64,000 bases of DNA from an uncultured Steroidobacteraceae bacterium (GCA_964417875.1 CAYQJU010000001.1:39675-103674); one strand, 5' to 3'; counted from the first letter of the stretch, positions 27,001 through 49,911 are shown. A program made the numbers and translations. Notes: generated by a model not told the origin, from the letters alone.

Positions 27001-28179
27001 ATGGCCACTGCTGAACTGGAAGTCCGCTCCGCGACCGTGACCCATCGGGGACCCACCGGTGAGTCCCCCCCCATCCGCCAGATCCTCACGCTGATCGACC
27101 AGGTTGCCGCGCATGACTCCAGTGTGCTGGTGCTGGGTGAATCGGGCACCGGCAAGGAAGTGGTGGCGCGCGCCATTCACAACTCCAGTCCGCGACGCCA
27201 TCGTCCCTTCATTGCCGTGAACTGCGGCGCCATTCCTGCCGACCTGCTCGAAAGCGAGCTGTTCGGACACGAGAAGGGTGCGTTCACCGGTGCGGTGGCC
27301 ACGCGCAAGGGCCGCTTCGAACTGGCCGATGGTGGCACGCTGTTCCTCGACGAGATCGGCGACATGAGCCTGCCGATGCAGGTGAAGCTGCTGCGCGTGC
27401 TGCAGGAGAAGGTGTTCGAGCGTGTCGGCAGCGCGCTGCAGTATCGCTGCAACGTGCGCATCATCGCCGCCACGCATCGCAACCTCGAGGACTCGATCAC
27501 CCGCGGCACATTCCGCGAGGACCTGTTCTACCGCCTGAACGTGTTTCCCATCGACATGCCCTCGCTGCGCGAGCGCAAGCAGGACCTGCCGGTACTGATC
27601 CGCGACTTCTCCGAAATGAACGTTGCGGCGGGCCGGGCGCGGGTGCTGCTGACGGCCGGCGCGATGGAATGCCTGGAGCGCTACAGCTGGCCTGGCAATG
27701 TGCGCGAGCTGGGCAACCTGATCGAACGGCTGTCCATCCTCTGCGGCGGCCGGCCGGTCGGCGCCCAGGATCTGCCGCCGCGCTATCGTCCGGCCGACTG
27801 GACGCCGCCGGCGGACGATGATCGCGTGCCCGAAGCTGCTCCGCTCCTGATTGCCGCCGCGCCCGCGCCGACGGCGGCCATCGCCGATGCCGGCGCCCCG
27901 GCGACCGAGCGCGAGCACGCGACGCGCCTCTCCGAACGCGAAGTGCTGCTGATGCTCGAGGACCCGGCCACCGGCAGCGGCACGGTGTTGCCGCCCGGCG
28001 GCATCGATCTGCGCGCGCATGTGTCCTCGATCGAGGAATCGCTGATCCGCCAGGCGCTGGAGCGCAGCAATGGCGTGGTCGCGCAGGCCGCAAGGCTGCT
28101 GCAGCTTCGCCGCACCACGCTGGTGGAGAAGTTGCGCAAGTTCGGCATCGGCGGCGTCGACGAAGCGACGGCCGATTGA
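27001..28179 (+). CDS. Sigma-54-dependent transcriptional activator, FleQ-like AAA+ and HTH domains, no N-terminal FleQ/receiver domain
   Basis: 392 aa with Walker A GESGTGKE, the GAFTGA loop, an FleQ-like tail LPPGGIDLRAHVSSIEESLIRQALERSNGVVAQAARLLQLRRTTLVEKLRKFGI, and only about 25 aa before the AAA+ core. Confidence 0.88.
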   Translation: MATAELEVRSATVTHRGPTGESPPIRQILTLIDQVAAHDSSVLVLGESGTGKEVVARAIHNSSPRRHRPFIAVNCGAIPADLLESELFGHEKGAFTGAVATRKGRFELADGGTLFLDEIGDMSLPMQVKLLRVLQEKVFERVGSALQYRCNVRIIAATHRNLEDSITRGTFREDLFYRLNVFPIDMPSLRERKQDLPVLIRDFSEMNVAAGRARVLLTAGAMECLERYSWPGNVRELGNLIERLSILCGGRPVGAQDLPPRYRPADWTPPADDDRVPEAAPLLIAAAPAPTAAIADAGAPATEREHATRLSEREVLLMLEDPATGSGTVLPPGGIDLRAHVSSIEESLIRQALERSNGVVAQAARLLQLRRTTLVEKLRKFGIGGVDEATAD

Positions 28180-28198
28180 CGTTTCCGGCTTCCATTCC

Positions 28199-28212
28199 GT
28201 GACACGCGTCAC
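28199..28212. promoter_or_regulatory. GTGAC-ACGC-GTCAC inverted repeat just upstream of the second activator's sigma-54 promoter
   Basis: It matches GTGAY-N4-RTCAC. The centre lies 28 bp upstream of the promoter GG. Confidence 0.4.
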
Positions 28213-28231
28213 GCGATGGGCAGCCCCTGGC

Positions 28232-28247
28232 CGGCACGGAACTTGCT
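28232..28247 (+). promoter_or_regulatory. Sigma-54 promoter of the second sigma-54 activator gene (probably also fliE-fliK)
   Basis: CGGCAC-GGAAC-TTGCT. TTGC is followed by 13 nt (tctctcctcggtc, no SD) and then ATG 28260. Confidence 0.7.
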
Positions 28248-28259
28248 CTCTCCTCGGTC

Positions 28260-29258
<999 letters not shown>

Positions 29259-29640: not shown

Positions 29641-31242
29641 ATGAGTGCCGACGTTCCTGCCGTTCCAATGAAGATGCCTGCCGCGATGGCTGGCCTGAAG
29701 CCGCTGCTGATCCTGATCGGCGTCGCAGCGGCAGTGGCTGCAGGCGTGGGCATCGCGCTGTGGTCTCAGGCGCCCACCTACAGCCTGCTGTTCGGCAACC
29801 TGAGTGATACCGATGCGTCGCAGCTCACGCAGTCGCTGGACCAGTCCGGAATTCCCTACCGGGTCGAGCATGGCGCGGTGCTGGTGCCGGCCAATCGCGT
29901 CACCGAGGCGCGCATGGGTCTGGCCGCGAAGGGCCTGCCGTCCTCAAGCGGCTTCTCGCTGATGGAAAAGGATCCGGGATTCGGCGTCAGCCAGTTCATG
30001 GAGAACGCGCGCTACCAGCACGCCATCGAGACTGAACTGGCGCGTACCATCGCCAGCCTGAAGCCGGTGCAGGGTGCGCGCGTGCACCTGGCCCTGCCGC
30101 AGCAGTCCGCGTTCGTGCGCGACCGCCGTCCGGCCAGCGCCTCGGTGTTCCTGCAGCTCAATGCCGGCGCGCGCATCGATCGCGGCCAGGTGGCGGCCAT
30201 CGTGAACCTGGTGGCATCGAGCATTCCCGAACTGGGCGCCGAGCATGTGACCGTGGTCGACAGCCAGGGGCGACTGCTGTCCTCGCCCGAGGAAGACAGC
30301 GAGTTCGCCGCGCGTGAGCAGCAGCTGGAGCTGGCGCGGCGCATCGAGGAGGATTATTCGCAGCGCATCGTGTCGCTGCTGACCCCGCTGCTGGGACCGG
30401 GCCGCGTGCGCGCGCAGGTGGTGGCGCAGATCGAACTCTCCAGCACCGAGGAGGCGCGCGAGCAGTATGGCCCGCAGAGCCAGGTGGTGCGCAGCGAGCA
30501 GACCAGCGAGGATATGAGCCGCACTGCAGGCGGACCGCAGGGCGTTCCCGGCGCGCTGACCAACCAGCCACCGGAGGGCGGCACGGCGCTGCCGCCGGGC
30601 GTGCAGGCGCAGGACGATGCGCAGACGGCTGCTGCCACGACTCCCGGGAGCAGCTCGCGGCAGGCCACGCGCAATTACGAGATCGACCGCACCGTTGCCT
30701 ATACCCGCATGCCGGCCGGTCGCCTGCAGCGCCTGTCGGCCGCCGTGGTCATCGACAACCTGCGCACCACGGCTGCCGATGGCAGCGTGGCCGAGACGCC
30801 GCTGACCGAGGAGCAGCTCGAACGCATCACCGGGCTGGTGCGCGATGCCGTCGGCTTCGATGACGGGCGCGGCGATCGCGTGTCGGTGGTGAACCAGAGC
30901 TTCCTGCAGGAAGCGGTCGAGGTGCCCGAGATCACCGCGCCACCCATCTGGGAGAACCCGATGGTGCGCGACATTGCCCGCCTTGTGGCCGGCCTTGTGA
31001 TCATCCTGGCGCTGCTGATGTTTGTGGTGCGGCCGCTGCTGCGCAACCTCGCCGCGCCGGTGAAGGCCGCGCTCGTGCCGCCGCCACCGTTGCCGGCGCC
31101 GCAGGCCGCGGGTGCTGCCCCCACCCGTCCTGCCGACACCATTGCCTATGAACAGCAGATCGCGCAGGCGCGCGGCCTGGTGGCCAAGGATCCGGCGCGC
31201 GTGGCGCAGGTCGTCAAGGAATGGGTGGAGAAGGATGACTGA
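29641..31242 (+). CDS. fliF: Flagellar MS-ring protein FliF
   Basis: 533 aa with an N-terminal TM segment, YSLLFGNLSDTDASQLTQSLDQSGIPYR, a second TM segment near the C-terminus and a C-terminal FliG-binding tail. Confidence 0.95.
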   Translation: MSADVPAVPMKMPAAMAGLKPLLILIGVAAAVAAGVGIALWSQAPTYSLLFGNLSDTDASQLTQSLDQSGIPYRVEHGAVLVPANRVTEARMGLAAKGLPSSSGFSLMEKDPGFGVSQFMENARYQHAIETELARTIASLKPVQGARVHLALPQQSAFVRDRRPASASVFLQLNAGARIDRGQVAAIVNLVASSIPELGAEHVTVVDSQGRLLSSPEEDSEFAAREQQLELARRIEEDYSQRIVSLLTPLLGPGRVRAQVVAQIELSSTEEAREQYGPQSQVVRSEQTSEDMSRTAGGPQGVPGALTNQPPEGGTALPPGVQAQDDAQTAAATTPGSSSRQATRNYEIDRTVAYTRMPAGRLQRLSAAVVIDNLRTTAADGSVAETPLTEEQLERITGLVRDAVGFDDGRGDRVSVVNQSFLQEAVEVPEITAPPIWENPMVRDIARLVAGLVIILALLMFVVRPLLRNLAAPVKAALVPPPPLPAPQAAGAAPTRPADTIAYEQQIAQARGLVAKDPARVAQVVKEWVEKDD

Positions 31243-31919
31243 TGAGCAGCGCCGCCATGCAGTTCGTTGAGCCGCTGCGGGATCTGCCCGTCACCGACAC
31301 GCGCGCCTGGAGCGCGCCGGTGTTCGATGGCGATGCCATGCCCGGCGGGCACCGCCGCGACAGCGACGAGCGGCGCGAGGAAGAGCGACGCGTGATGGCC
31401 GAGGCGCAGGCCCGCGGCCATGCCGCCGGACTTGCCGCCGCGCAGCGCGAGATCAATGCGAAGCTTGCCGCGCTGGAAGCACAGCGCCGGACGCTGACCG
31501 CCGCGCTCGACGCACTGTCACGGCCGCTGGCGCAGCTGGACGATGCGCTGCACGAACAGATTGCATTGCTGGCGATGCGCATCGCACGTGCGGTGGTGCG
31601 CCGCGAACTGCGCATCGATCCCTCGCAGGTGATCGGCATCGTGCGTGACACCGTTGCGCTGCTGCCGGCCGCGACGCGCGCGCCCCGCGTGCTGCTGCAT
31701 CCTGAAGATGCCGCGCTGCTGCGCGAGCGGGTGTTGCCGTCAGGACCGGAAGCGGCCTGGTCCATCATCGAGGATCCGACCCTGGGGCGCGGCGATTGCC
31801 GCGTGCTCACCGATCACGCGCAGGTCGATTCGCGGGTCGAGACACGACTGAACGAAGCCCTCACCGCATTGCTCGGTGAGGAGCGCGCCCGGCCACGCGA
31901 CGAAGGAGATTCCGCATGA
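31242..31919 (+). CDS. fliH: Flagellar export ATPase regulator FliH
   Basis: 225 aa with an N-terminal Trp motif (RAWSAPVF), a charged coiled coil and a C-terminal LHPEDAALL...VDSRVETRL. It overlaps the fliF stop (TGATG). Confidence 0.85.
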
Positions 31920-34847: not shown

Positions 34848-34863
34848 TGGCACACGCCTTGCA
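34848..34863 (+). promoter_or_regulatory. Sigma-54 promoter of the fliL-fliN-fliOPQR-flhB operon
   Basis: TGGCAC-ACGCC-TTGCA is a perfect consensus. It lies 49 nt upstream of the fliL ATG. Confidence 0.8.
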
Positions 34864-34911: not shown

Positions 34912-35403
34912 ATGTCCGAACAAGCCGCCAGCGATGAAACTCCCCGCAAGTCCCGCAAGGGCCTGATCTTCACCATTGCCGGCGTGCTGCTGGTGGCCGG
35001 CGGCGCCGGCGCCTGGTTCGCCCTCGGCGGCAAGTCGTCGGACGCAGACGCGAATGCCGAGGCCGCCGCGGTGGCGAAACTTCCGCCGCAGTTCGTGGAA
35101 CTGGATCCGCCCTTCGTCGTGAATTTCCAGCCCGGCTCCTCGGCGCGCTTCCTGCAGGTGGCGGTGCAGGTGATGACGCGCGATCCGCAGGCGGTCGCCA
35201 GGCTCCAACACCTCGCGCCCATCATCCGCAATGACCTGCTGCTGCTGTTCGGCAACAAGCAGGTGGCAGAGGTCGCCACACCCGAAGGCAAGGAAGCACT
35301 GCGCACGGCCACGCTGGACGCGGTGCGCAAGGTGCTGGCTTCCGAGGGCGGCGATCCCGAGGCCCTCGAGGCCGTGTATTTCACCAGCTTCGTCATGCAA
35401 TAG
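34912..35403 (+). CDS. fliL: Flagellar basal-body-associated protein FliL
   Basis: 163 aa with a single N-terminal TM segment and PFVVNF...RFLQVAVQV...IRNDLLLLF motifs. Confidence 0.9.
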   Translation: MSEQAASDETPRKSRKGLIFTIAGVLLVAGGAGAWFALGGKSSDADANAEAAAVAKLPPQFVELDPPFVVNFQPGSSARFLQVAVQVMTRDPQAVARLQHLAPIIRNDLLLLFGNKQVAEVATPEGKEALRTATLDAVRKVLASEGGDPEALEAVYFTSFVMQ

Positions 35404-35415
35404 GACACCTGCGCA

Positions 35416-35766
35416 ATGAGCACCGATCTTTCCGCGAATGCTGAAGGCGCGCATCCCGATGCGGTGGCCGACGACGTCCTGATGACGGCACCGCCGGTGC
35501 CGCGAGACGTGAACCTGGACGTCATCCTCGACGTGCCGGTCACGCTGTCGCTGGAGGTGGGCCGCACGCGCCTGCCGATCCGCAGCCTGCTGCAACTGAA
35601 CCAGGGTTCGGTGGTGGAACTGGAACGCGCCGCCGGCGAGCCGCTCGATGTCTACGTGAATGGCACGCTGGTCGCGCATGGCCAGGTCGTGGTCGTGAAC
35701 GAGAAGTTCGGCATCCGCCTCACCGATGTGGTGAGTCCGGCCGAACGCATCCGCAAGCTCAGGTAA
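35416..35766 (+). CDS. fliN: C-ring / export-gate SpoA-domain protein FliN (copy 1)
   Basis: 116 aa. LDVPVTLSLEVGRTRLPIRSLLQLNQGSVVELERAAGEPLDVYVNGTLVAHGQVVVVNEKFGIRLTDV is a canonical FliN SpoA domain. The gene follows fliL directly, with no fliM between them. Confidence 0.9.
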   Translation: MSTDLSANAEGAHPDAVADDVLMTAPPVPRDVNLDVILDVPVTLSLEVGRTRLPIRSLLQLNQGSVVELERAAGEPLDVYVNGTLVAHGQVVVVNEKFGIRLTDVVSPAERIRKLR

Positions 35767-35769
35767 CCG

Positions 35770-36234
35770 GTGACCATGAAACCCCTTTTCACGCGCGCCA
35801 TGGCCATCGTGCTCGGCAGTGCGCCGCTGCTGGTCGCCGCGGCGGCCGAGGCCCCGCGCCGCTTCGCCGCGCCGGAAGTGGCGTCCTCGCCTACTGCCAG
35901 CGGCGCCACCGGCATCGGCCAGGTGATGCTGGCGCTGGTCATCGTGCTGATCGCGGTGTTTGCCGCGGCACTGCTGGTCAAGCGGCTGCGCGGATTCACC
36001 GGCGGCGGCAGCGACGGCATCGAGGTGGTGTCGCAGGCGCTGGTCGGTCCGAAGGAACGCGTGGTGATCGTGCGGGTCGCCGGCAATCGCCTGCTGCTCG
36101 GGGTGGCCAGCGGTCAGGTGAACCTGTTGCAGACGCTGCCGCCCGATGAAGGTGGCGCGCCTGCGCCGCTGGCGCCGGCTGCCGGCAACATGCCGCGTTT
36201 CGGGGAATTGCTGCGCAGGAGCCTCGGCCGGTGA
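35770..36234 (+). CDS. fliO: Flagellar export apparatus protein FliO
   Basis: 154 aa with a GTG start and a single TM segment ([22 protein letters not shown]). It sits between fliN and fliP. Confidence 0.8.
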
Positions 36235-36974
36235 AGTACCTGCATTGGCTGGCCGCGCTGGGCGCGATGCTGCTGCCGCTGGCCGCCCAGGCCGCGGCGC
36301 CGGGCATTCCGGCGGTGGTGGTGGAAGGCGAACCGGGCGCGCAGAGCTACTCGCTGACGCTGCAGCTGCTGATCCTGATGACGGCAGTCACGCTGCTGCC
36401 GTCCATCGTGCTGATGATGACCTCGTTCACGCGCATCGTGATCGTGCTGGCCATCCTGCGCCAGGCCATCGGCGCCGGACAGGCCCCGCCGAACCAGGTG
36501 CTGATCGGGCTTGCGCTGTTCCTGTCGCTGTTCGTGATGGCGCCGGTGATCGGCACCATCAACACCGAGGCCGTGCAGCCCTACATGGCCGGCACCATCG
36601 AGACCACCGAGGCCCTGCAGCGCGCGGCCGTGCCGCTGAAGCAGTTCATGCTGCAGCAGACCCGCGAGAGCGACATCGCCACCTTCGTCAGCATCTCCGG
36701 CGGACAGGGTTTCGATGCGCCCGAGGATGTGCCGCTGTCGATCCTCGTGCCGGCCTTTGCCACCAGCGAGCTGAAGACCGCCTTCCAGATCGGCTTCCTG
36801 CTGTTCATCCCGTTCGTGATCATCGACCTGGTGGTTGCCAGCGTGCTGATGTCGATGGGCATGATGATGCTCTCGCCGGTGCTGATCTCGCTGCCATTCA
36901 AGATCATGCTGTTCGTGCTGGTGGACGGCTGGTCGCTGGTGATGGGCACGCTTGCCGCCAGCTTCTACACCTGA
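36231..36974 (+). CDS. fliP: Flagellar export apparatus protein FliP
   Basis: 247 aa with [54 protein letters not shown]. Confidence 0.96.
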
Positions 36975-37264: not shown

Positions 37265-38044
37265 GTGATCACGCTGACCACCGGGCAGATCGAGGCATGG
37301 CTGGCCGCGTGGCTGTGGCCATTCCTGCGCATCGGCGCCTGCCTGATGGTGGCGCCGGTGTTCGGCGCCCGCTTCGTGCCGGCGCGCGTGCGCCTGGTGC
37401 TGGCCGGTGCCATCGCGCTGGCCATCGCGCCGCTCTTGCCGCCGCTGCCGGCGGTATCGCCGTTCTCCGGCGAGGGCATCGTCATCACCGCGCAGCAGGT
37501 GCTGATCGGCGTGGCCATCGGCTTCGTGCTGCAGATCGTGTTCGACGCACTGGCGATGGGCGGCCAGCTGCTGGCCAACACCATGGGCCTGTCATTCGCC
37601 TTCAATGTCGATCCGCTGCGCGGCACCGGTGCGCCGGTGGTCGGCCAGTTCTACACGTTGATCGCGACGCTGACCTTCCTGGCGCTGAACGGACACCTGG
37701 CCATCGTGCAGGCGCTGGTGGATGGCTTCACCACAATGCCGGTGGGCATGCAGGGCCTGGGGCCGGAAGGCTACTGGCAGCTGGTGGGCTGGGGTTCGGC
37801 GCTGTTCCGTGGCGCGCTGATGGTGGCGTTGCCGGGGCTCACCGCACTGCTGATCGTCAATCTTGCCTTCGGTGTCGTCAGCCGCGCGGCGCCGACGCTG
37901 AACCTGTTCGCGATCGGCTTTCCCGCGACGCTGATCGGCGGCCTGCTGATCATCCTGGCCGGCCTGCCGGCGATGCAGGCCGGATTCACCGCGCTGATGC
38001 GCGAGACGCTGGCGCTGGCCACCACGCTGATGGGCGGGGGCTGA
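37265..38044 (+). CDS. fliR: Flagellar export apparatus protein FliR
   Basis: 259-aa polytopic membrane protein with a GTG start, positioned after fliQ. Confidence 0.92.
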   Translation: MITLTTGQIEAWLAAWLWPFLRIGACLMVAPVFGARFVPARVRLVLAGAIALAIAPLLPPLPAVSPFSGEGIVITAQQVLIGVAIGFVLQIVFDALAMGGQLLANTMGLSFAFNVDPLRGTGAPVVGQFYTLIATLTFLALNGHLAIVQALVDGFTTMPVGMQGLGPEGYWQLVGWGSALFRGALMVALPGLTALLIVNLAFGVVSRAAPTLNLFAIGFPATLIGGLLIILAGLPAMQAGFTALMRETLALATTLMGGG

Positions 38045-46231: not shown

Positions 46232-47116
46232 ATGTCTGCCGAGCGCCAGGAGAATGCCGCCCGTCCCGAGCACTGGGATGCCTTCACCTTCGTCAAGGAA
46301 CTGGCTGCCGAGGCTTCTGCGGGCCGGATCGAGATTCCCGCCTTTCCCGATGTCGCGATGCGCATCCGCCGCGTGCTGGCGGACGAGAACTGCGACGCCG
46401 GCCAGGTCGCCCGGGTGGTCAGCGCTGAACCGGCGCTGGCCGCGCGCCTGCTGCACATGGCCAACTCCGCTGCATTCAATCCCGGCAGCGCAAAGGTCAC
46501 CGAACTGAAGGGTGCGATCGCACGCATCGGCTTCGCCAATGTGCGCACCGCGTCCCTGGCCTATGCGATGGATCAGCTGCGCAATGCCGAGGCGCTCGAA
46601 CCGATTCGCGCGCCGCTGAACGCGCTGTGGGAACGCAGCGTGAAGGTCGCGGCGATGGCGCATGTGGCCGCGCGCAGCTGGACGCGCATCAGTCCCGACC
46701 TTGCATTGCTGGCCGGCCTGATGCACGCCATGGGAAGCCTGTACATCATGACGCGCGCCGCGAACCATCCTGGCCTGTTTGCCGATGCCGCCGCCTACCA
46801 GCAGATCGTCAGCCAGTGGCATGCGCCGATTGCGCGCATGGTGCTGGAAAGCTGGGACATGTCGCCCGATGTAGTCGAGGCGGTGGAAAAACATGAACAT
46901 CCGGACCGCGAACCCGGTGCCTCGGCCGACCTCACCGACGTGCTGGCCGTGGCCGCGCTGCTGGCCAGTTTTCCGTCGGACCCGGAAGCGCTCGAGGCAC
47001 AGCTTGCCGCCACGCCTTCCAGCCGCCGCCTGCGCCTGACCTCCGATTCCGTGCAGAAGGTGCTGCAGGAATCGGCGGCCGACCTGGCCAGCCTGCACGC
47101 CGCCCTCGGCGGCTGA
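46232..47116 (+). CDS. HDOD domain protein
   Basis: ATG at 46232 lies within the listed ORF 45848..47116. IPAFPDVAMRIRRVL, PALAARLLHMANSAAF, AIARIGFANVRT, WERSVKVAAMAH and AGLMHAMGSLYI are typical HDOD motifs. 294 aa. Confidence 0.85.
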   Translation: MSAERQENAARPEHWDAFTFVKELAAEASAGRIEIPAFPDVAMRIRRVLADENCDAGQVARVVSAEPALAARLLHMANSAAFNPGSAKVTELKGAIARIGFANVRTASLAYAMDQLRNAEALEPIRAPLNALWERSVKVAAMAHVAARSWTRISPDLALLAGLMHAMGSLYIMTRAANHPGLFADAAAYQQIVSQWHAPIARMVLESWDMSPDVVEAVEKHEHPDREPGASADLTDVLAVAALLASFPSDPEALEAQLAATPSSRRLRLTSDSVQKVLQESAADLASLHAALGG

Positions 47117-47150: not shown

Positions 47151-47176
47151 GGCGCCGGTTTTCCGGCGCCACTTTG
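47151..47176 (+). terminator. Hairpin / weak terminator after the HDOD gene
   Basis: GGCGCCGG-tttt-CCGGCGCC forms a perfect 8-bp stem followed by ACTTTG. The T tract is short. Confidence 0.4.
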
Positions 47177-47200: not shown

Positions 47201-47216
47201 CGGCACGGTGTTTGCA
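47201..47216 (+). promoter_or_regulatory. Sigma-54 promoter of fliG-fliM-fliN2(-cheY)
   Basis: CGGCAC-GGTGT-TTGCA. TTGC is followed by 13 nt (attgaacacagcg, no SD) and then ATG 47229. Confidence 0.65.
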
Positions 47217-47228
47217 TTGAACACAGCG

Positions 47229-48215
47229 ATGGCAACTGAAATCCAATCCACCCGAAGTGCCGCCGTGCTTCTGCTCGCATTGGGCGAAGGCGAGGCGGCC
47301 ACCGTGCTCAAGCACCTGGACGCCAAGGTCGTGCAGCGCCTCGGCACCGCCATGGCGCAGCTGAAGTCTGCCTCGCGCGAGGAAGTCAGCGAGGTGGTGG
47401 GCGGTTTTGTCGAGACGATGGAATCGCAGGCCGACATCAAGGTCGGCTCCGATGATTACATCCGCAAGGTGCTGACGCAGGCACTGGGCGATGAGCGCGC
47501 CAGCGGCATCATCGACCGCATCCAGATGGGCCGGCGCTCCAAGGGACTGGACGTGCTGAAGTGGATGGAGCCGCGCGCCATCGCCGAGGTGATCCGCCTC
47601 GAGCATCCGCAGATCCTTGCCATCGTGATCTCCTACCTTGATCCGGACCTTGCCGCCAAGGTGCTCAACGAGCTGCCCAAGGACGTGCAGGCCGAGGTCA
47701 TCATGCGCATCGCGCAGCTCGATGGCGTGCAGCCCTCCGCGCTCGGCAAGCTCGACGAGATGATCGAGAAGCAGATCGCCGGCAAGGGCAGCAGCGTGTC
47801 GGCCAACCTCGGCGGCCCGAAGACCGCCGCCAGCATCCTGAACTTCATGCCGGCCGCAACGCTCGACGAGCTGCGCCAGGCCGACGAGGCGCTGACCATG
47901 CGCCTGCAGGACCTGATGTTCACCTTCGAGGACATGATCAACATCGACGACAAGGGCATCCAGGCGATCCTTCGCGAGATCGATTCGGCGCGCCTGGTGG
48001 TGGCACTGAAGGGTGCGGACGCCTCGCTGGTGGACCGCTTCCTGAAGAACATGTCCAGCCGCGCCGCCGAGATGCTGAAGGACGACATGGAGGCGCGCGG
48101 ACCGGTGCGCCTCTCCGAAGTGGAAGAAGCGCAGCGCGAGATCCTCGCCACCACGCGCCGCCTGGCCGAAGCCGGCTCCGTGGTCATCAACGCCGGCAGT
48201 GAGCAGTACGTATGA
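47229..48215 (+). CDS. fliG: Flagellar rotor/switch protein FliG
   Basis: AAVLLLALGEGEAATVLKHL, EHPQILAIVISYL, MFTFEDM and the C-terminal torque-helix region (MSSRAAEMLKDDME...EEAQREI) are all present. ATG 47229 is preferred because GTG 47208 lies inside a sigma-54 promoter consensus. Confidence 0.93.
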   Translation: MATEIQSTRSAAVLLLALGEGEAATVLKHLDAKVVQRLGTAMAQLKSASREEVSEVVGGFVETMESQADIKVGSDDYIRKVLTQALGDERASGIIDRIQMGRRSKGLDVLKWMEPRAIAEVIRLEHPQILAIVISYLDPDLAAKVLNELPKDVQAEVIMRIAQLDGVQPSALGKLDEMIEKQIAGKGSSVSANLGGPKTAASILNFMPAATLDELRQADEALTMRLQDLMFTFEDMINIDDKGIQAILREIDSARLVVALKGADASLVDRFLKNMSSRAAEMLKDDMEARGPVRLSEVEEAQREILATTRRLAEAGSVVINAGSEQYV

Positions 48216-49222
48216 GCGGGGAAATCCTCGACCAGGAAGAGATCGACGCCCTCGTCAACGGCGTGCAGAGCGGTGCGGTCGACGTCGACCCGAAGCCGGC
48301 CGACGACGTGCGCACGGCGCGCGACTACGATTTCAGCACCCAGACCCGCATCGTGCGCGGGCGCATGCCCACGCTCGAGATGATCAACGAGCGAATGGCC
48401 CGCGCGCTGCGCATGTCGCTGTTCAACATGTTGCGCCGCTCGCCGGAGATCTCGGTGCAGGGCATCTCCACGCCGAAGTACGCCGAATACGTGGCGACGC
48501 TGGCCGTGCCCACCAGCCTGAACCTGATCCGCTTCCAGCCGCTGTCGGGCACCGCTCTGATGATCTTCGAGGCCAAGCTGGTGTTCGCGCTGATCGATGT
48601 GTTCTTCGGCGGCACCGGCCGCCACGCGAAGATCGAGGGCCGTGACTTCACGCCCACCGAGAACGACATCATCCACCTGCTGATGGAGCAGGCGTTCGCG
48701 GCGGTGGAGGAGGCCTGGGCGGCCATCCTGCCGGCGCGAATCGAGTACATCAACCGCGAGGTCAATCCGAACTTCGCCCACATCGTCAGCCCCACCGAGA
48801 TCGTGGTGGTCAGCCGGCTGCGCGTGGAATTCGAGGGCCGCGGTGGGGAGATCCACCTGACGCTGCCCTATTCGATGCTCGAGCCGCTGAAGGACACATT
48901 ACGCGCCGGCATGCAGACCGATCGCGCCGACCGCGAGGAGCGCTGGTCGCAGCTGCTGCGCAACGAGCTGGAGGAATCGGAGGTCGACCTGGTCACGCTG
49001 CTGGGCACTGCCCAGACCACCGTGGCACGGCTGATCGACATGCGCCCCGGCGATGTGATCCCGTTCGAATTCGATGGCCAGGCCACCGTGCTGGCCGACG
49101 GCATCCCGCTGTTCTGGGGTGAACTGGGCCAGCAGCGCGGATGCCAGGTCGTGCGCGTGCAGCAGATGAACGCCCGCAAGACGGGCAATTCCCTGGATGC
49201 CTTCGTGAGGAAGTCAGCATGA
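48212..49222 (+). CDS. fliM: Flagellar switch protein FliM
   Basis: 336 aa with the N-terminal CheY-P-binding LDQEEIDALV-type motif, a middle domain (GGTG motif FFGGTGRH) and a C-terminal SpoA-like domain. Confidence 0.94.
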   Translation: MSGEILDQEEIDALVNGVQSGAVDVDPKPADDVRTARDYDFSTQTRIVRGRMPTLEMINERMARALRMSLFNMLRRSPEISVQGISTPKYAEYVATLAVPTSLNLIRFQPLSGTALMIFEAKLVFALIDVFFGGTGRHAKIEGRDFTPTENDIIHLLMEQAFAAVEEAWAAILPARIEYINREVNPNFAHIVSPTEIVVVSRLRVEFEGRGGEIHLTLPYSMLEPLKDTLRAGMQTDRADREERWSQLLRNELEESEVDLVTLLGTAQTTVARLIDMRPGDVIPFEFDGQATVLADGIPLFWGELGQQRGCQVVRVQQMNARKTGNSLDAFVRKSA

Positions 49223-49491
49223 GCACCGCCCCACAGGTCGAGGCCGCAGCGGACGTGGTCCTGGATGTCAGCGTGAGCCTCGCCCTGGAAGTGGGGCGTG
49301 CGCGCATGGCCATCCGTGACTTCCTGCAACTTGCGCCCGGATCGATTGTCGAACTGGAACGCCCCGCCGGCGATGCGCTCGATGTCTATGTCAATGACCG
49401 GCTCGTCGCACACGGCGAGGTGGTGATGGTCAACGACCGCTATGGAGTGCGCTTCACCGAGGCCGTCGATGCGGCCGAAATGCACCGCTGA
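49219..49491 (+). CDS. SpoA-domain switch protein FliN (copy 2)
   Basis: ATG at 49219 overlaps the fliM stop. The 90-aa product reads LDVSVSLALEVGRARMAIRDFLQLAPGSIVELERPAGDALDVYVNDRLVAHGEVVMVNDRYGVRFTE and is roughly 55-60% identical by eye to copy 1. Confidence 0.88.
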   Translation: MSTAPQVEAAADVVLDVSVSLALEVGRARMAIRDFLQLAPGSIVELERPAGDALDVYVNDRLVAHGEVVMVNDRYGVRFTEAVDAAEMHR

Positions 49492-49524: not shown

Positions 49525-49911
49525 ATGAATGCTGCAGTGCGATTCCTGGTTGTCGACGACTTCTCGACCATGCGCCGCATGGTCCGGAGCGTGCTGCACG
49601 AGCTGGGCTACAACGACGTCGTCGAGGCCGACGACGGCAATGCGGCGCTGCCCATCCTGAAGCAGGGCAGCATCGATTTCCTGGTGACCGACATCAACAT
49701 GCCGGGGATGCAGGGCATCGAGCTGCTCAAGGCGGTGCGTGCGGATCCGAAGCTGTCGAAGCTGCCGGTGCTGCTGGTGACGGCGGAGGCCAAGCGCGAG
49801 CAGATCGTCGAGGCGGCGCGCGCCGGCGTGAACGGCTATGTGGTCAAGCCCTTCACGGCGCAGGTACTGAAGGAAAAGATCGAGAAGATCCTGGCCAGCG
49901 GCCACAATTGA
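49525..49911 (+). CDS. cheY: Chemotaxis response regulator CheY
   Basis: 128-aa single REC domain with the DD acidic pocket ([10 protein letters not shown]), a phospho-acceptor Asp in [11 protein letters not shown], and T and K residues (LLVTAEA, YVVKPF). Confidence 0.92.

What the first reader, a model, noticed from the sequence alone, without database searches (positions are those of the whole stretch)
34912..35766. fliL is followed directly by a fliN copy with no fliM; the cluster encodes two FliN paralogs
The canonical order is fliL-fliM-fliN-fliO. Here fliL (ending at 35403) is followed 12 nt later by a 116-aa FliN (35416..35766) and then fliOPQR. A second, shorter FliN of 90 aa lies after fliM at 49219..49491. 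The two SpoA domains look roughly 55-60% identical by eye. For example, LDVPVTLSLEVGRTRLPIRSLLQLNQGSVVELERAAGEPLDVYVNGTLVAHGQVVVVNEKFGIRLT aligns with LDVSVSLALEVGRARMAIRDFLQLAPGSIVELERPAGDALDVYVNDRLVAHGEVVMVNDRYGVRFT. One copy is linked to the export-gate genes and the other to the switch genes. This suggests subfunctionalisation, with one copy serving FliH/export docking and the other the C-ring and switching. It could also mean a mixed C-ring like the FliN/FliY pairs of other lineages.
Basis: partly seen in the sequence, partly recalled or inferred. Interest (0 to 1): 0.62.

Follow-up and report, generated by a model that had tools for sequence, protein, structure and literature searches.

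The report
Two FliN genes, split switch operon
This soil bacterium and its whole genus have one flagellum gene set but two genes for the motor-base protein FliN: a highly conserved copy left beside the export genes and a shortened, faster-evolving copy that travels with the relocated fliG and fliM, so the base of the switch ring is probably built from two different FliN proteins.

Summary
fliL (34912-35403) is followed 12 nt later by a 116-aa FliN (FliN1), then fliOPQR. A 90-aa FliN (FliN2, 49219-49491) overlaps the stop of fliM by 4 nt. The two are 58% identical and both pass the curated FliN thresholds.

The genome's only fliG and fliM sit in a separate sigma-54-type unit, fliG-fliM-fliN2-cheY.

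All 17 genus relatives inspected share this layout, and FliN2-type proteins form about 700 clusters in public metagenomes. Trees place the relocated FliM and FliG inside the Steroidobacteraceae clade, so they are native genes and not imports. A duplication of the native fliN is the best-fitting origin for FliN2.

FliN1's SpoA core is about 91% identical across the genus (dN/dS 0.06). FliN2's is about 70% identical (dN/dS 0.18). FliN2 has its own invariant residues and has lost the conserved C-terminal SPxERIRKL tail.

The likely function is a mixed FliM_C:SpoA ring base, but this is inferred and untested. This is a new gammaproteobacterial variant of the known two-SpoA C-rings (Campylobacter FliY/FliN). 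Interest is moderate.

The parts
29641..31242 (+). fliF. Its stop overlaps the fliH start, and no fliG lies between them.
   Evidence: NCBIfam TIGR00206 fliF 310 bits; coordinates.
31242..31919 (+). fliH, directly after fliF in the slot where fliG normally sits.
   Evidence: Pfam FliH 107 bits.
34848..34862 (+). Sigma-54 consensus promoter TGGCAC-N5-TTGC, 50 nt upstream of fliL.
   Evidence: Exact match; 3 in the window against 0.23 expected; sequence read.
34912..35403 (+). fliL
   Evidence: Pfam FliL 91 bits.
35416..35766 (+). fliN1: canonical, highly conserved FliN (116 aa) in the ancestral position before fliO.
   Evidence: It is 83-95% identical to the FliN of genus relatives and 84-93% identical over the SpoA domain to Steroidobacter, Xanthomonas, Dyella and Sinimarinibacterium FliN. 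SpoA core dN/dS is 0.058.
35770..36234 (+). fliO, followed by fliP (36231-36974), fliR (37265-38044), flhB and flhA.
   Evidence: Pfam FliO 67 bits; translations.
46241..47116 (+). HDOD-domain gene immediately upstream of the switch module (start codon not fixed).
   Evidence: Pfam HDOD 127 bits.
47151..47170 (+). 8-bp GC hairpin after the HDOD gene. It is terminator-like but the T-run is weak.
47201..47216 (+). Sigma-54-like promoter CGGCAC-N5-TTGC before fliG.
   Evidence: Sequence read; one mismatch to the consensus; function inferred.
47208..48215 (+). fliG, the only one in the genome. The longest ORF starts at GTG 47208, but ATG 47229 is the more likely start.
   Evidence: TIGR00207 fliG 317 bits; single FliG_C hit in the genome; lies inside the Steroidobacteraceae FliG clade.
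48212..49222 (+). fliM, the only one in the genome. It keeps the N-terminal EIDAL CheY-docking peptide.
   Evidence: TIGR01397 fliM 317 bits; single FliM hit; lies inside the Steroidobacteraceae FliM clade, SH-aLRT 100; translation.
49219..49491 (+). fliN2: shortened, faster-evolving FliN paralog (90 aa), translationally coupled to fliM.
   Evidence: Forms a single clade with SH-aLRT 100 on a stem of 2.6 substitutions per site. Has family-specific invariant residues. dN/dS is 0.18.
49525..49911 (+). cheY, the last gene of the switch module.
   Evidence: NCBIfam CheY model PRK10610, 170 bits, below its cut-off of 189. It follows fliN2 in the genus genomes where the contig extends past fliN2.

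Best explanation
Shown. In the ancestor of this Steroidobacteraceae genus, the native fliG and fliM left their canonical slots (fliF-[fliG]-fliH and fliL-[fliM]-fliN). They now form a separate unit, fliG-fliM-fliN2-cheY, with a sigma-54-type promoter. The ancestral fliN stayed immediately upstream of fliO. FliN2 is best fitted as a duplicate of that native fliN. The two copies then evolved asymmetrically. FliN1 keeps every canonical feature under very strong constraint. FliN2 lost about 25 N-terminal residues and the conserved C-terminal SPxERIRKL helix motif. It also fixed its own invariant residues (A92P, T104R, V113M, F118Y, I120V, D124E in E. coli numbering) and evolves about four times faster, still under purifying selection.

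Inferred. Both proteins are subunits of the single C-ring. The ring base is built from units of FliM_C plus three SpoA partners in non-equivalent positions. FliN2 is made roughly 1:1 with FliM through the ATGA coupling, so it probably fills one dedicated position. FliN1 probably fills the remaining positions and keeps the classical FliH-docking role. Which position FliN2 occupies is not determined.
For: Layout and single copies of fliG and fliM. Genus-wide conservation: 26 of 29 genus genomes with any SpoA hit have three or more hits. All 17 other genus genomes inspected at the locus level match the layout, and neither split slot holds fliG or fliM wherever it was sequenced. Thirteen of them show both the fliL-fliN1-fliO slot and fliG-fliM-fliN2, followed by cheY where the contig continues; these loci are adjacent or up to 800 kb apart. 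Native origin: the module's FliM and FliG fall inside the Steroidobacteraceae clades (SH-aLRT 100 and 98) on long stems, and no sampled genome of the class has a FliM more than 54% identical. FliN2 origin: forcing FliN2 together with the genus FliN1 gives a better likelihood (+23.8 lnL, p-AU 0.87). Asymmetry: the SpoA core is 91% identical with dN/dS 0.058 for FliN1, against 70% and 0.18 for FliN2; clade depth is 0.44 against 1.67. FliN2's own invariant residues and lost tail. FliN2-type proteins form 702 clusters in public data; the 120 best listed are 85-93 aa long. Separate promoters. Structural frame: the FliM_C-FliN heterodimer plus FliN-FliN homodimer, and the alpha3-alpha3 contacts between two of the three FliN positions (bioRxiv 10.1101/2024.04.30.591856; PMC11087270).
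Against: There is no expression, interaction or structural data for either protein. The hydrophobic patch is retained in both copies, so sequence does not assign FliH docking to one of them. The apparent extra divergence of FliM_C in this genus is not specific to FliN2. On a fixed topology FliM_C is accelerated 2.2-fold here and 1.9-fold in a lineage with relocated fliM but only one FliN. The FliN tree has only 97 columns and the FliN2 stem is very long, so the AU result permits an in-lineage duplication but does not prove it.
Confidence: 0.55

Rival explanations
1. Strict subfunctionalisation. FliN1 serves only FliH/ATPase docking for the export gate, and FliN2 is the sole SpoA partner of FliM in the ring and in switching.
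For: Gene linkage: fliN1 lies with fliOPQR-flhBA, and fliN2 lies with fliG-fliM-cheY. FliN1 keeps the canonical sequence of FliN proteins known to bind FliH.
Against: FliN2 also keeps a hydrophobic patch. Lineages BC3.85/BC1.39 and G459 have relocated fliM but a single FliN in the fliO-linked slot, which must do both jobs. FliN2 has lost the conserved C-terminal helix motif used for FliN-FliN contacts in the Salmonella ring. That loss is odd for the sole ring builder, which would need three copies per FliM.
Confidence: 0.15
2. Dosage or redundancy. The two copies are functionally interchangeable, and the second gene only ensures enough FliN (three per FliM) now that fliM is transcribed separately.
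For: FliN is needed in three-fold excess over FliM (PMC11087270). Both genes lie in sigma-54-type flagellar operons.
Against: The divergence is strong, asymmetric and stable across the clade. FliN2 has its own invariant residues and has lost both termini. Lineages with relocated fliM manage with one fliN.
Confidence: 0.15
3. FliN2 is not a stoichiometric ring subunit. It is an accessory or regulatory SpoA protein that tunes switching or assembly, for example by capping FliM_C before assembly or by competing for CheY or FliM_N binding.
For: It is co-transcribed with cheY and fliM, evolves fast and has truncated termini.
Against: The SpoA core is fully intact and aligns over residues 54-131 of Salmonella FliN from solved C-rings. 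Translational coupling to fliM suggests equimolar synthesis with a structural partner.
Confidence: 0.1
4. The fliG-fliM-fliN2(-cheY) module was acquired horizontally and displaced the native fliG and fliM. This was my first working hypothesis.
For: The module's FliM and FliG are only about 50% identical to those of close relatives, while FliI is 70-78% and FliP 75-89% identical.
Against: The FliM and FliG trees place the module inside the Steroidobacteraceae clade. No closer FliM exists in 400 sampled genomes of the class. The AU test favours FliN2 with the native FliN1. Low identity therefore reflects acceleration, not foreign origin.
Confidence: 0.03

Closest known systems
Campylobacter jejuni / Helicobacter pylori C-ring with FliM + FliY + FliN (Henderson et al. 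2020, PMC6946799; H. pylori FliY-FliN structure PDB 5XRW)
   Same: One flagellar system has two FliN-family SpoA paralogs besides FliM. One paralog sits directly downstream of fliM and the other lies elsewhere. A lineage-specific duplication with division of labour is proposed, giving a mixed SpoA spiral at the ring base.
   Different: Neither copy here has a CheC-like domain; both are short plain FliN proteins. The polarity is reversed: in C. jejuni the fliM-linked copy (FliY) is the canonical-like one, whereas here the fliM-linked copy is the divergent one and the fliO-linked copy is canonical. This case arose independently in Gammaproteobacteria and comes with relocation of fliG and fliM.
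Salmonella/E. coli C-ring base: FliM_C plus three copies of a single FliN (PMC11087270; bioRxiv 10.1101/2024.04.30.591856; PDB 8UMD, 4YXB)
   Same: FliN1 is a typical member. FliN2 aligns to residues 54-131 of Salmonella FliN. FliM keeps the EIDAL peptide, the middle domain and the SpoA C-domain.
   Different: In the enterics one gene supplies all three non-equivalent FliN positions, and fliL-fliM-fliN-fliO and fliF-fliG-fliH are contiguous. Here two genes are available for those positions and both operons are split.
Injectisome SctQ / SctQ-C (SpaO long and short forms, Spa33; PMC4832279, PMC13059759)
   Same: SpoA-domain products of different length come from a locus directly upstream of the export-gate genes (the sctRST / fliPQR synteny) and combine in a defined stoichiometry.
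   Different: There the short form comes from an internal start in one gene. Here there are two separate genes 13.5 kb apart in a flagellar system, and the genome has no injectisome SpoA gene.

Membership tests
FliN (flagellar switch protein, SpoA domain; Pfam PF01052, NCBIfam TIGR02480) | SpoA/FliMN_C domain scoring above Pfam's gathering score | tested here: met
   FliN1 scores 89.8 bits and FliN2 83.9 bits against a cut-off of 23.8.
FliN (flagellar switch protein, SpoA domain; Pfam PF01052, NCBIfam TIGR02480) | Scores above the curated NCBIfam fliN equivalog-domain cut-off | tested here: met
   FliN1 scores 110.7 bits and FliN2 101.2 bits against a cut-off of 84.05.
FliN (flagellar switch protein, SpoA domain; Pfam PF01052, NCBIfam TIGR02480) | Encoded in a flagellar cluster next to fliM and/or fliO | tested here: met
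   FliN1 lies between fliL and fliO. FliN2 overlaps the fliM stop.
FliN (flagellar switch protein, SpoA domain; Pfam PF01052, NCBIfam TIGR02480) | Hydrophobic patch that docks FliH (Salmonella L68, A93, V111, V113, Y118; PMC7505661) | tested here: met
   FliN1 has V, A, V, V, F and FliN2 has V, A, V, M, Y. All are hydrophobic, and V113M is fixed in every FliN2. Binding itself was not tested.
FliN (flagellar switch protein, SpoA domain; Pfam PF01052, NCBIfam TIGR02480) | Conserved C-terminal helix motif (E. coli TPSERMRRL; SPAERIRKL in this order) | tested here: not met
   The motif is met by FliN1. It is not met by FliN2, whose tail is 3-4 residues shorter, variable and lacks the motif in all 8 genus copies and 32 metagenomic homologues.
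FliN (flagellar switch protein, SpoA domain; Pfam PF01052, NCBIfam TIGR02480) | Assembles with FliM_C in the C-ring | not testable with these tools
   No multimer prediction or experimental data are available. The monomer models had low confidence.
FliY (CheC-domain FliN homologue of Bacillus, Campylobacterota and spirochaetes) | N-terminal CheC/CheX-like phosphatase domain fused to SpoA | tested here: not met
   Only the SpoA domain is found. The proteins are 116 and 90 aa, and the FliY models score far below their cut-offs.
Two-paralog SpoA C-ring (the FliN/FliY type of organisation) | Two FliN-family genes plus one fliM serving a single flagellar system | tested here: met
   The genome has exactly three SpoA hits, one FliM and one FliG.
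Two-paralog SpoA C-ring (the FliN/FliY type of organisation) | Both paralogs are required and not interchangeable | not testable with these tools
   Only indirect support exists: both are kept under purifying selection across the genus with fixed differences.
Injectisome SctQ | Linked to injectisome genes, with long and short products from one gene | tested here: not met
   SctQ models score below their cut-offs. There is no further SpoA gene in the genome, and the neighbours are flagellar genes.

The most novel reading that the evidence does not exclude
In this genus the three structurally non-equivalent FliN positions of the FliM_C:FliN3 building block have been divided between two genes, giving an obligate FliM:FliN2:FliN1 = 1:1:2 lattice. 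FliN2 would be a dedicated single-position protomer that no longer needs the C-terminal helix. FliN1 would retain FliH docking and the helix-mediated contacts. If so, this is a natural system in which individual positions of the C-ring base can be addressed genetically. It would also suggest that this specialisation became possible once fliM left the fliLMN operon.
Probability: 0.35. Interest if true: 0.6.

Novelty: new variant of a known kind. Interest (0 to 1): 0.48.

Why it matters
C-ring composition is usually treated as fixed (FliG, FliM, FliN) outside the Campylobacterota, spirochaetes and Firmicutes. This case shows an independent, clade-wide FliN duplication in ordinary soil Gammaproteobacteria. 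It is tied to an unusual break-up of two of the most conserved flagellar gene adjacencies, fliF-fliG and fliM-fliN. Within Steroidobacteraceae, fliM has left the core operon in at least two lineages (fliG too in this genus and in BC3.85/BC1.39, but not in G459), while fliN never leaves fliO. That points to a constraint tying the SpoA gene to the export-gate genes, as sctQ is tied to sctRST. The FliN1/FliN2 pair offers a natural test of how the non-equivalent FliN positions seen in recent cryo-EM structures differ in their requirements. Annotation pipelines currently name both proteins simply 'FliN'.

Tried and rejected
1. Horizontal acquisition of the fliG-fliM-fliN2 module. This was suggested by the roughly 50% identity of FliM and FliG to relatives. 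It was rejected by the FliM and FliG trees, the class-wide search and the AU test.

2. Two flagellar systems. This is rejected for this genome. Two genus members (G006, G007) do carry an unrelated second flagellar cluster, but they carry it in addition to the FliN1/FliN2 layout.

3. Genus members in which the fliM-adjacent FliN scored higher against Pfam (G012, G015, G033) looked like possible canonical intermediates. Locus inspection showed the usual fliG-fliM-fliN2 module in all three and the fliM-less fliL-fliN1-fliO slot in G015 and G033; the slot was not fetched for G012.

4. Co-acceleration of FliM_C with FliN2 as evidence that the two pair. Percent identities suggested it. Fixed-topology branch lengths give 2.2-fold here against 1.9-fold in a single-FliN lineage with relocated fliM, so the effect is not specific and I do not use it.

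5. AlphaFold2 monomer models of FliN2 and FliN1 had mean pLDDT of 57 and 42. That is too poor to interpret, as expected for an intertwined dimer fold, so no fold search was run.

7. A literature search for 'fliN1'/'fliN2' found such names mostly for subunit positions in the Salmonella ring structures or for dual flagellar systems, plus Bacillus thuringiensis and Leptospira papers whose usage I did not check. No listed title or abstract described a case like this one.

Full report
OBSERVATION

- fliL is 34912-35403 (Pfam FliL).
- A 12-nt spacer follows, then FliN1 at 35416-35766 (116 aa).
- fliO begins at 35770 and is followed by fliP, fliR, flhB, flhA, flhF, fleN, fliA, motC, motD, a DUF2802 gene and an HDOD gene.
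- Then come fliG (47208-48215), fliM (48212-49222), FliN2 (49219-49491, 90 aa) and cheY (49525-49911).

Both FliN proteins exceed Pfam's FliMN_C gathering score and the curated NCBIfam fliN cut-off: 110.7 and 101.2 bits against 84.05. They are 58% identical. FliN2's ATG overlaps the fliM stop as ATGA and lies behind a GAGGAAG ribosome-binding site.

The finding did not mention that fliG is also missing from its canonical place. The fliF stop overlaps the fliH start at 31242.

The whole assembly is a 3.5-Mb MAG that is 92.75% complete. It contains one FliG, one FliM and exactly three SpoA domains. This is therefore one flagellar system with two FliN genes.

DISTRIBUTION

FliN1's closest relatives in named genomes are Steroidobacteraceae MAGs.

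In the window's GTDB genus, 29 of 36 other genomes have SpoA hits, and 26 of those have three or more. Other families of the order mostly have two.

I inspected loci from 17 other genus genomes. These were G003, G005-G008, G010, G012, G014, G015, G019, G024 and G031-G033, plus the genomes of L006 (G460), L012 and L017 (G461).
- Both layouts together, fliE-fliF-fliH...fliL-fliN1-fliO without fliG or fliM and a separate fliG-fliM-fliN2 unit, were seen in 13 of them.
- In G012 I fetched only the module; for L006 and L017 only the fliM-less fliL-fliN1 slot, which in L017 also shows fliF-fliH without fliG; and L012 is a canonical fliL-fliM-fliN locus of another lineage, so it is not counted among the 17 and the true number of genus genomes inspected beside the window is 16.
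- cheY follows fliN2 wherever the contig continues past it.
- The module lies just downstream of the main cluster, as it does here, or far away; in G024 it is 800 kb distant.

Public protein collections hold 702 clusters of FliN2-type proteins (E <= 1e-10). The 120 best listed are 85-93 aa long. Those that carry a name are called plain 'FliN' or 'FliN/FliY'.

Outside the genus, canonical fliL-fliM-fliN-fliO is the rule in Steroidobacter, Nevskiales, Xanthomonadales and a sample of the class. There are two informative exceptions within Steroidobacteraceae.
- MAGs BC3.85 and BC1.39 also lack fliG and fliM in the main cluster. Their fliG-fliM pair sits behind tolB-pal-cpoB-queC, and they have only one FliN.
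- G459 keeps fliG in place but has fliM on another contig. It also has only one FliN.

ORIGIN

My first idea was that a foreign fliG-fliM-fliN module had displaced the native genes. The module's FliM and FliG are only about 50% identical to those of relatives whose FliI and FliP are 70-89% identical. The trees reject this idea.
- The module's FliM and FliG fall inside the Steroidobacteraceae clades (SH-aLRT 100 and 98) on long stems.
- No genome among 400 sampled across the class has a FliM more than 54% identical over its full length.

They are therefore native genes that moved and then evolved faster. Their dN/dS is about 0.27-0.29, against 0.15-0.16 for FliI and FliP.

A FliI+FliP tree puts G459 next to the genus (SH-aLRT 87) and puts the BC lineage with a canonical genome (SH-aLRT 100). 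The departure of fliM from its slot therefore happened at least twice.

FliN2 forms one clade (SH-aLRT 100) on a very long stem of 2.6 substitutions per site, and the free tree does not resolve its attachment. Constraining FliN2 with the genus's own FliN1 gives a better likelihood (+23.8, p-AU 0.87). An in-lineage duplication of the native fliN is therefore the best-fitting origin, though it is not proven with only 97 columns.

THE TWO PROTEINS

FliN1 is a textbook FliN.
- Its SpoA core is about 91% identical across the genus, with dN/dS 0.058.
- It is 84-93% identical to the FliN of Xanthomonas, Steroidobacter and Sinimarinibacterium.
- It keeps the conserved C-terminal SPAERIRKL motif.

FliN2 differs in several ways.
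- It is about 70% identical across the same genomes, with dN/dS 0.18.
- It lacks about 25 N-terminal residues.
- Its C-terminal tail is shorter, variable and lacks the motif.
- It carries substitutions fixed in all copies: A92P, T104R, V113M, F118Y, I120V and D124E in E. coli numbering.

The FliH-docking patch positions (L68, A93, V111, V113, Y118; PMC7505661) remain hydrophobic in both proteins. FliN2 aligns to residues 54-131 of Salmonella FliN from solved C-rings.

fliL-fliN1-fliO... lies behind a perfect sigma-54 consensus at 34848-34862. fliG-fliM-fliN2-cheY lies behind a hairpin and a one-mismatch sigma-54 element at 47201-47216.

MECHANISM (INFERRED)

In Salmonella the ring base is a spiral of units made of FliM_C and three FliN.
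- One FliN forms a heterodimer with FliM_C.
- The other two form a homodimer.
- The N-terminal helices swap between units.
- The C-terminal helices of two of the three FliN positions contact each other (bioRxiv 10.1101/2024.04.30.591856; PMC11087270).

One gene thus fills three non-equivalent positions, and a duplication can specialise them. FliN2 is strongly conserved in its own way, coupled to fliM translation and missing the canonical C-terminal helix motif. This fits a protomer dedicated to one position per FliM. FliN1 would supply the others and the classical FliH docking.

I cannot tell which position FliN2 takes. The extra divergence of FliM_C seen in identity tables is not specific, because a single-FliN lineage with relocated fliM shows nearly the same acceleration (1.9-fold against 2.2-fold).

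- Single-FliN relatives do both jobs with the fliO-linked gene.
- FliN2 keeps the hydrophobic patch.
- FliN2 is the copy that lost a ring contact element.

COMPARISON AND NOVELTY

The nearest known case is the FliM+FliY+FliN ring of C. jejuni and H. pylori. It is explained by a lineage-specific duplication with division of labour (PMC6946799). There are three differences here.
- Neither copy has a CheC domain.
- The polarity is reversed: the fliM-linked copy is the divergent one.
- The duplication is tied to the dismantling of the fliFG and fliLMN adjacencies.

I found no description of this arrangement in the searched literature. I rate it a new variant of a known kind and of moderate interest.

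LIMITS
- All genomes are MAGs or unnamed representatives.
- The trees are quick-search IQ-TREE runs with SH-aLRT support only.
- dS is near saturation for distant pairs.
- The monomer structure models had low confidence.

Noticed in passing
window 29641-31919: fliG is cleanly absent between fliF and fliH (the stop and start overlap at 31242). The only fliG lies 16 kb downstream, next to fliM. The same is true in every genus genome whose fliF-fliH junction was sequenced. The sister lineage G459 still has fliF-fliG-fliH but has already lost fliM from its slot, which suggests a stepwise break-up.
   Followed up: yes
L106 6909-8857 and L107 6489-8534 (MAGs BC3.85 / BC1.39): A second Steroidobacteraceae lineage independently removed fliG and fliM from the main flagellar cluster. 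It placed them as a pair behind tolB-pal-cpoB(ybgF)-queC, a housekeeping neighbourhood, with no second fliN and no cheY.
   Followed up: partly
L098 6017-8387 (G010 contig C5): One genus member carries an extra fliM paralog (71% identical to the window's FliM). It is followed directly by a cheY and preceded by a CheD-domain gene, with no fliG or fliN. It comes from a long-read assembly with frameshifts elsewhere, so caution is needed.
   Followed up: partly
L090 and L093 (G007 C31, G006 C46): Two genus members have an additional, distantly related flagellar cluster in canonical order (FliM 28-29% and FliP 57-59% identical to the window's). They have it on top of the FliN1/FliN2 system, giving three FliN genes.
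   Followed up: partly
L073 978-6696 (Steroidobacteraceae MAG SMAG_U12955): In this canonical fliL-fliM-fliN cluster, an HDOD gene and about 2.5 kb of other DNA are inserted between fliN and fliO. The genome also has a second, weaker FliM/FliN pair on another contig (L109).
   Followed up: no
window 27001-29258: The two sigma-54 activator genes upstream of fliE (392 and 332 aa) match only the AAA+ and DNA-binding parts of NtrC/FlbD-type models. They appear to lack receiver domains.
   Followed up: no
window 47201-47231: The sigma-54-like element before fliG overlaps the GTG that opens the longest fliG ORF. ATG 47229 lies 13 nt after TTGC, so the real fliG start is probably 47229.
   Followed up: partly
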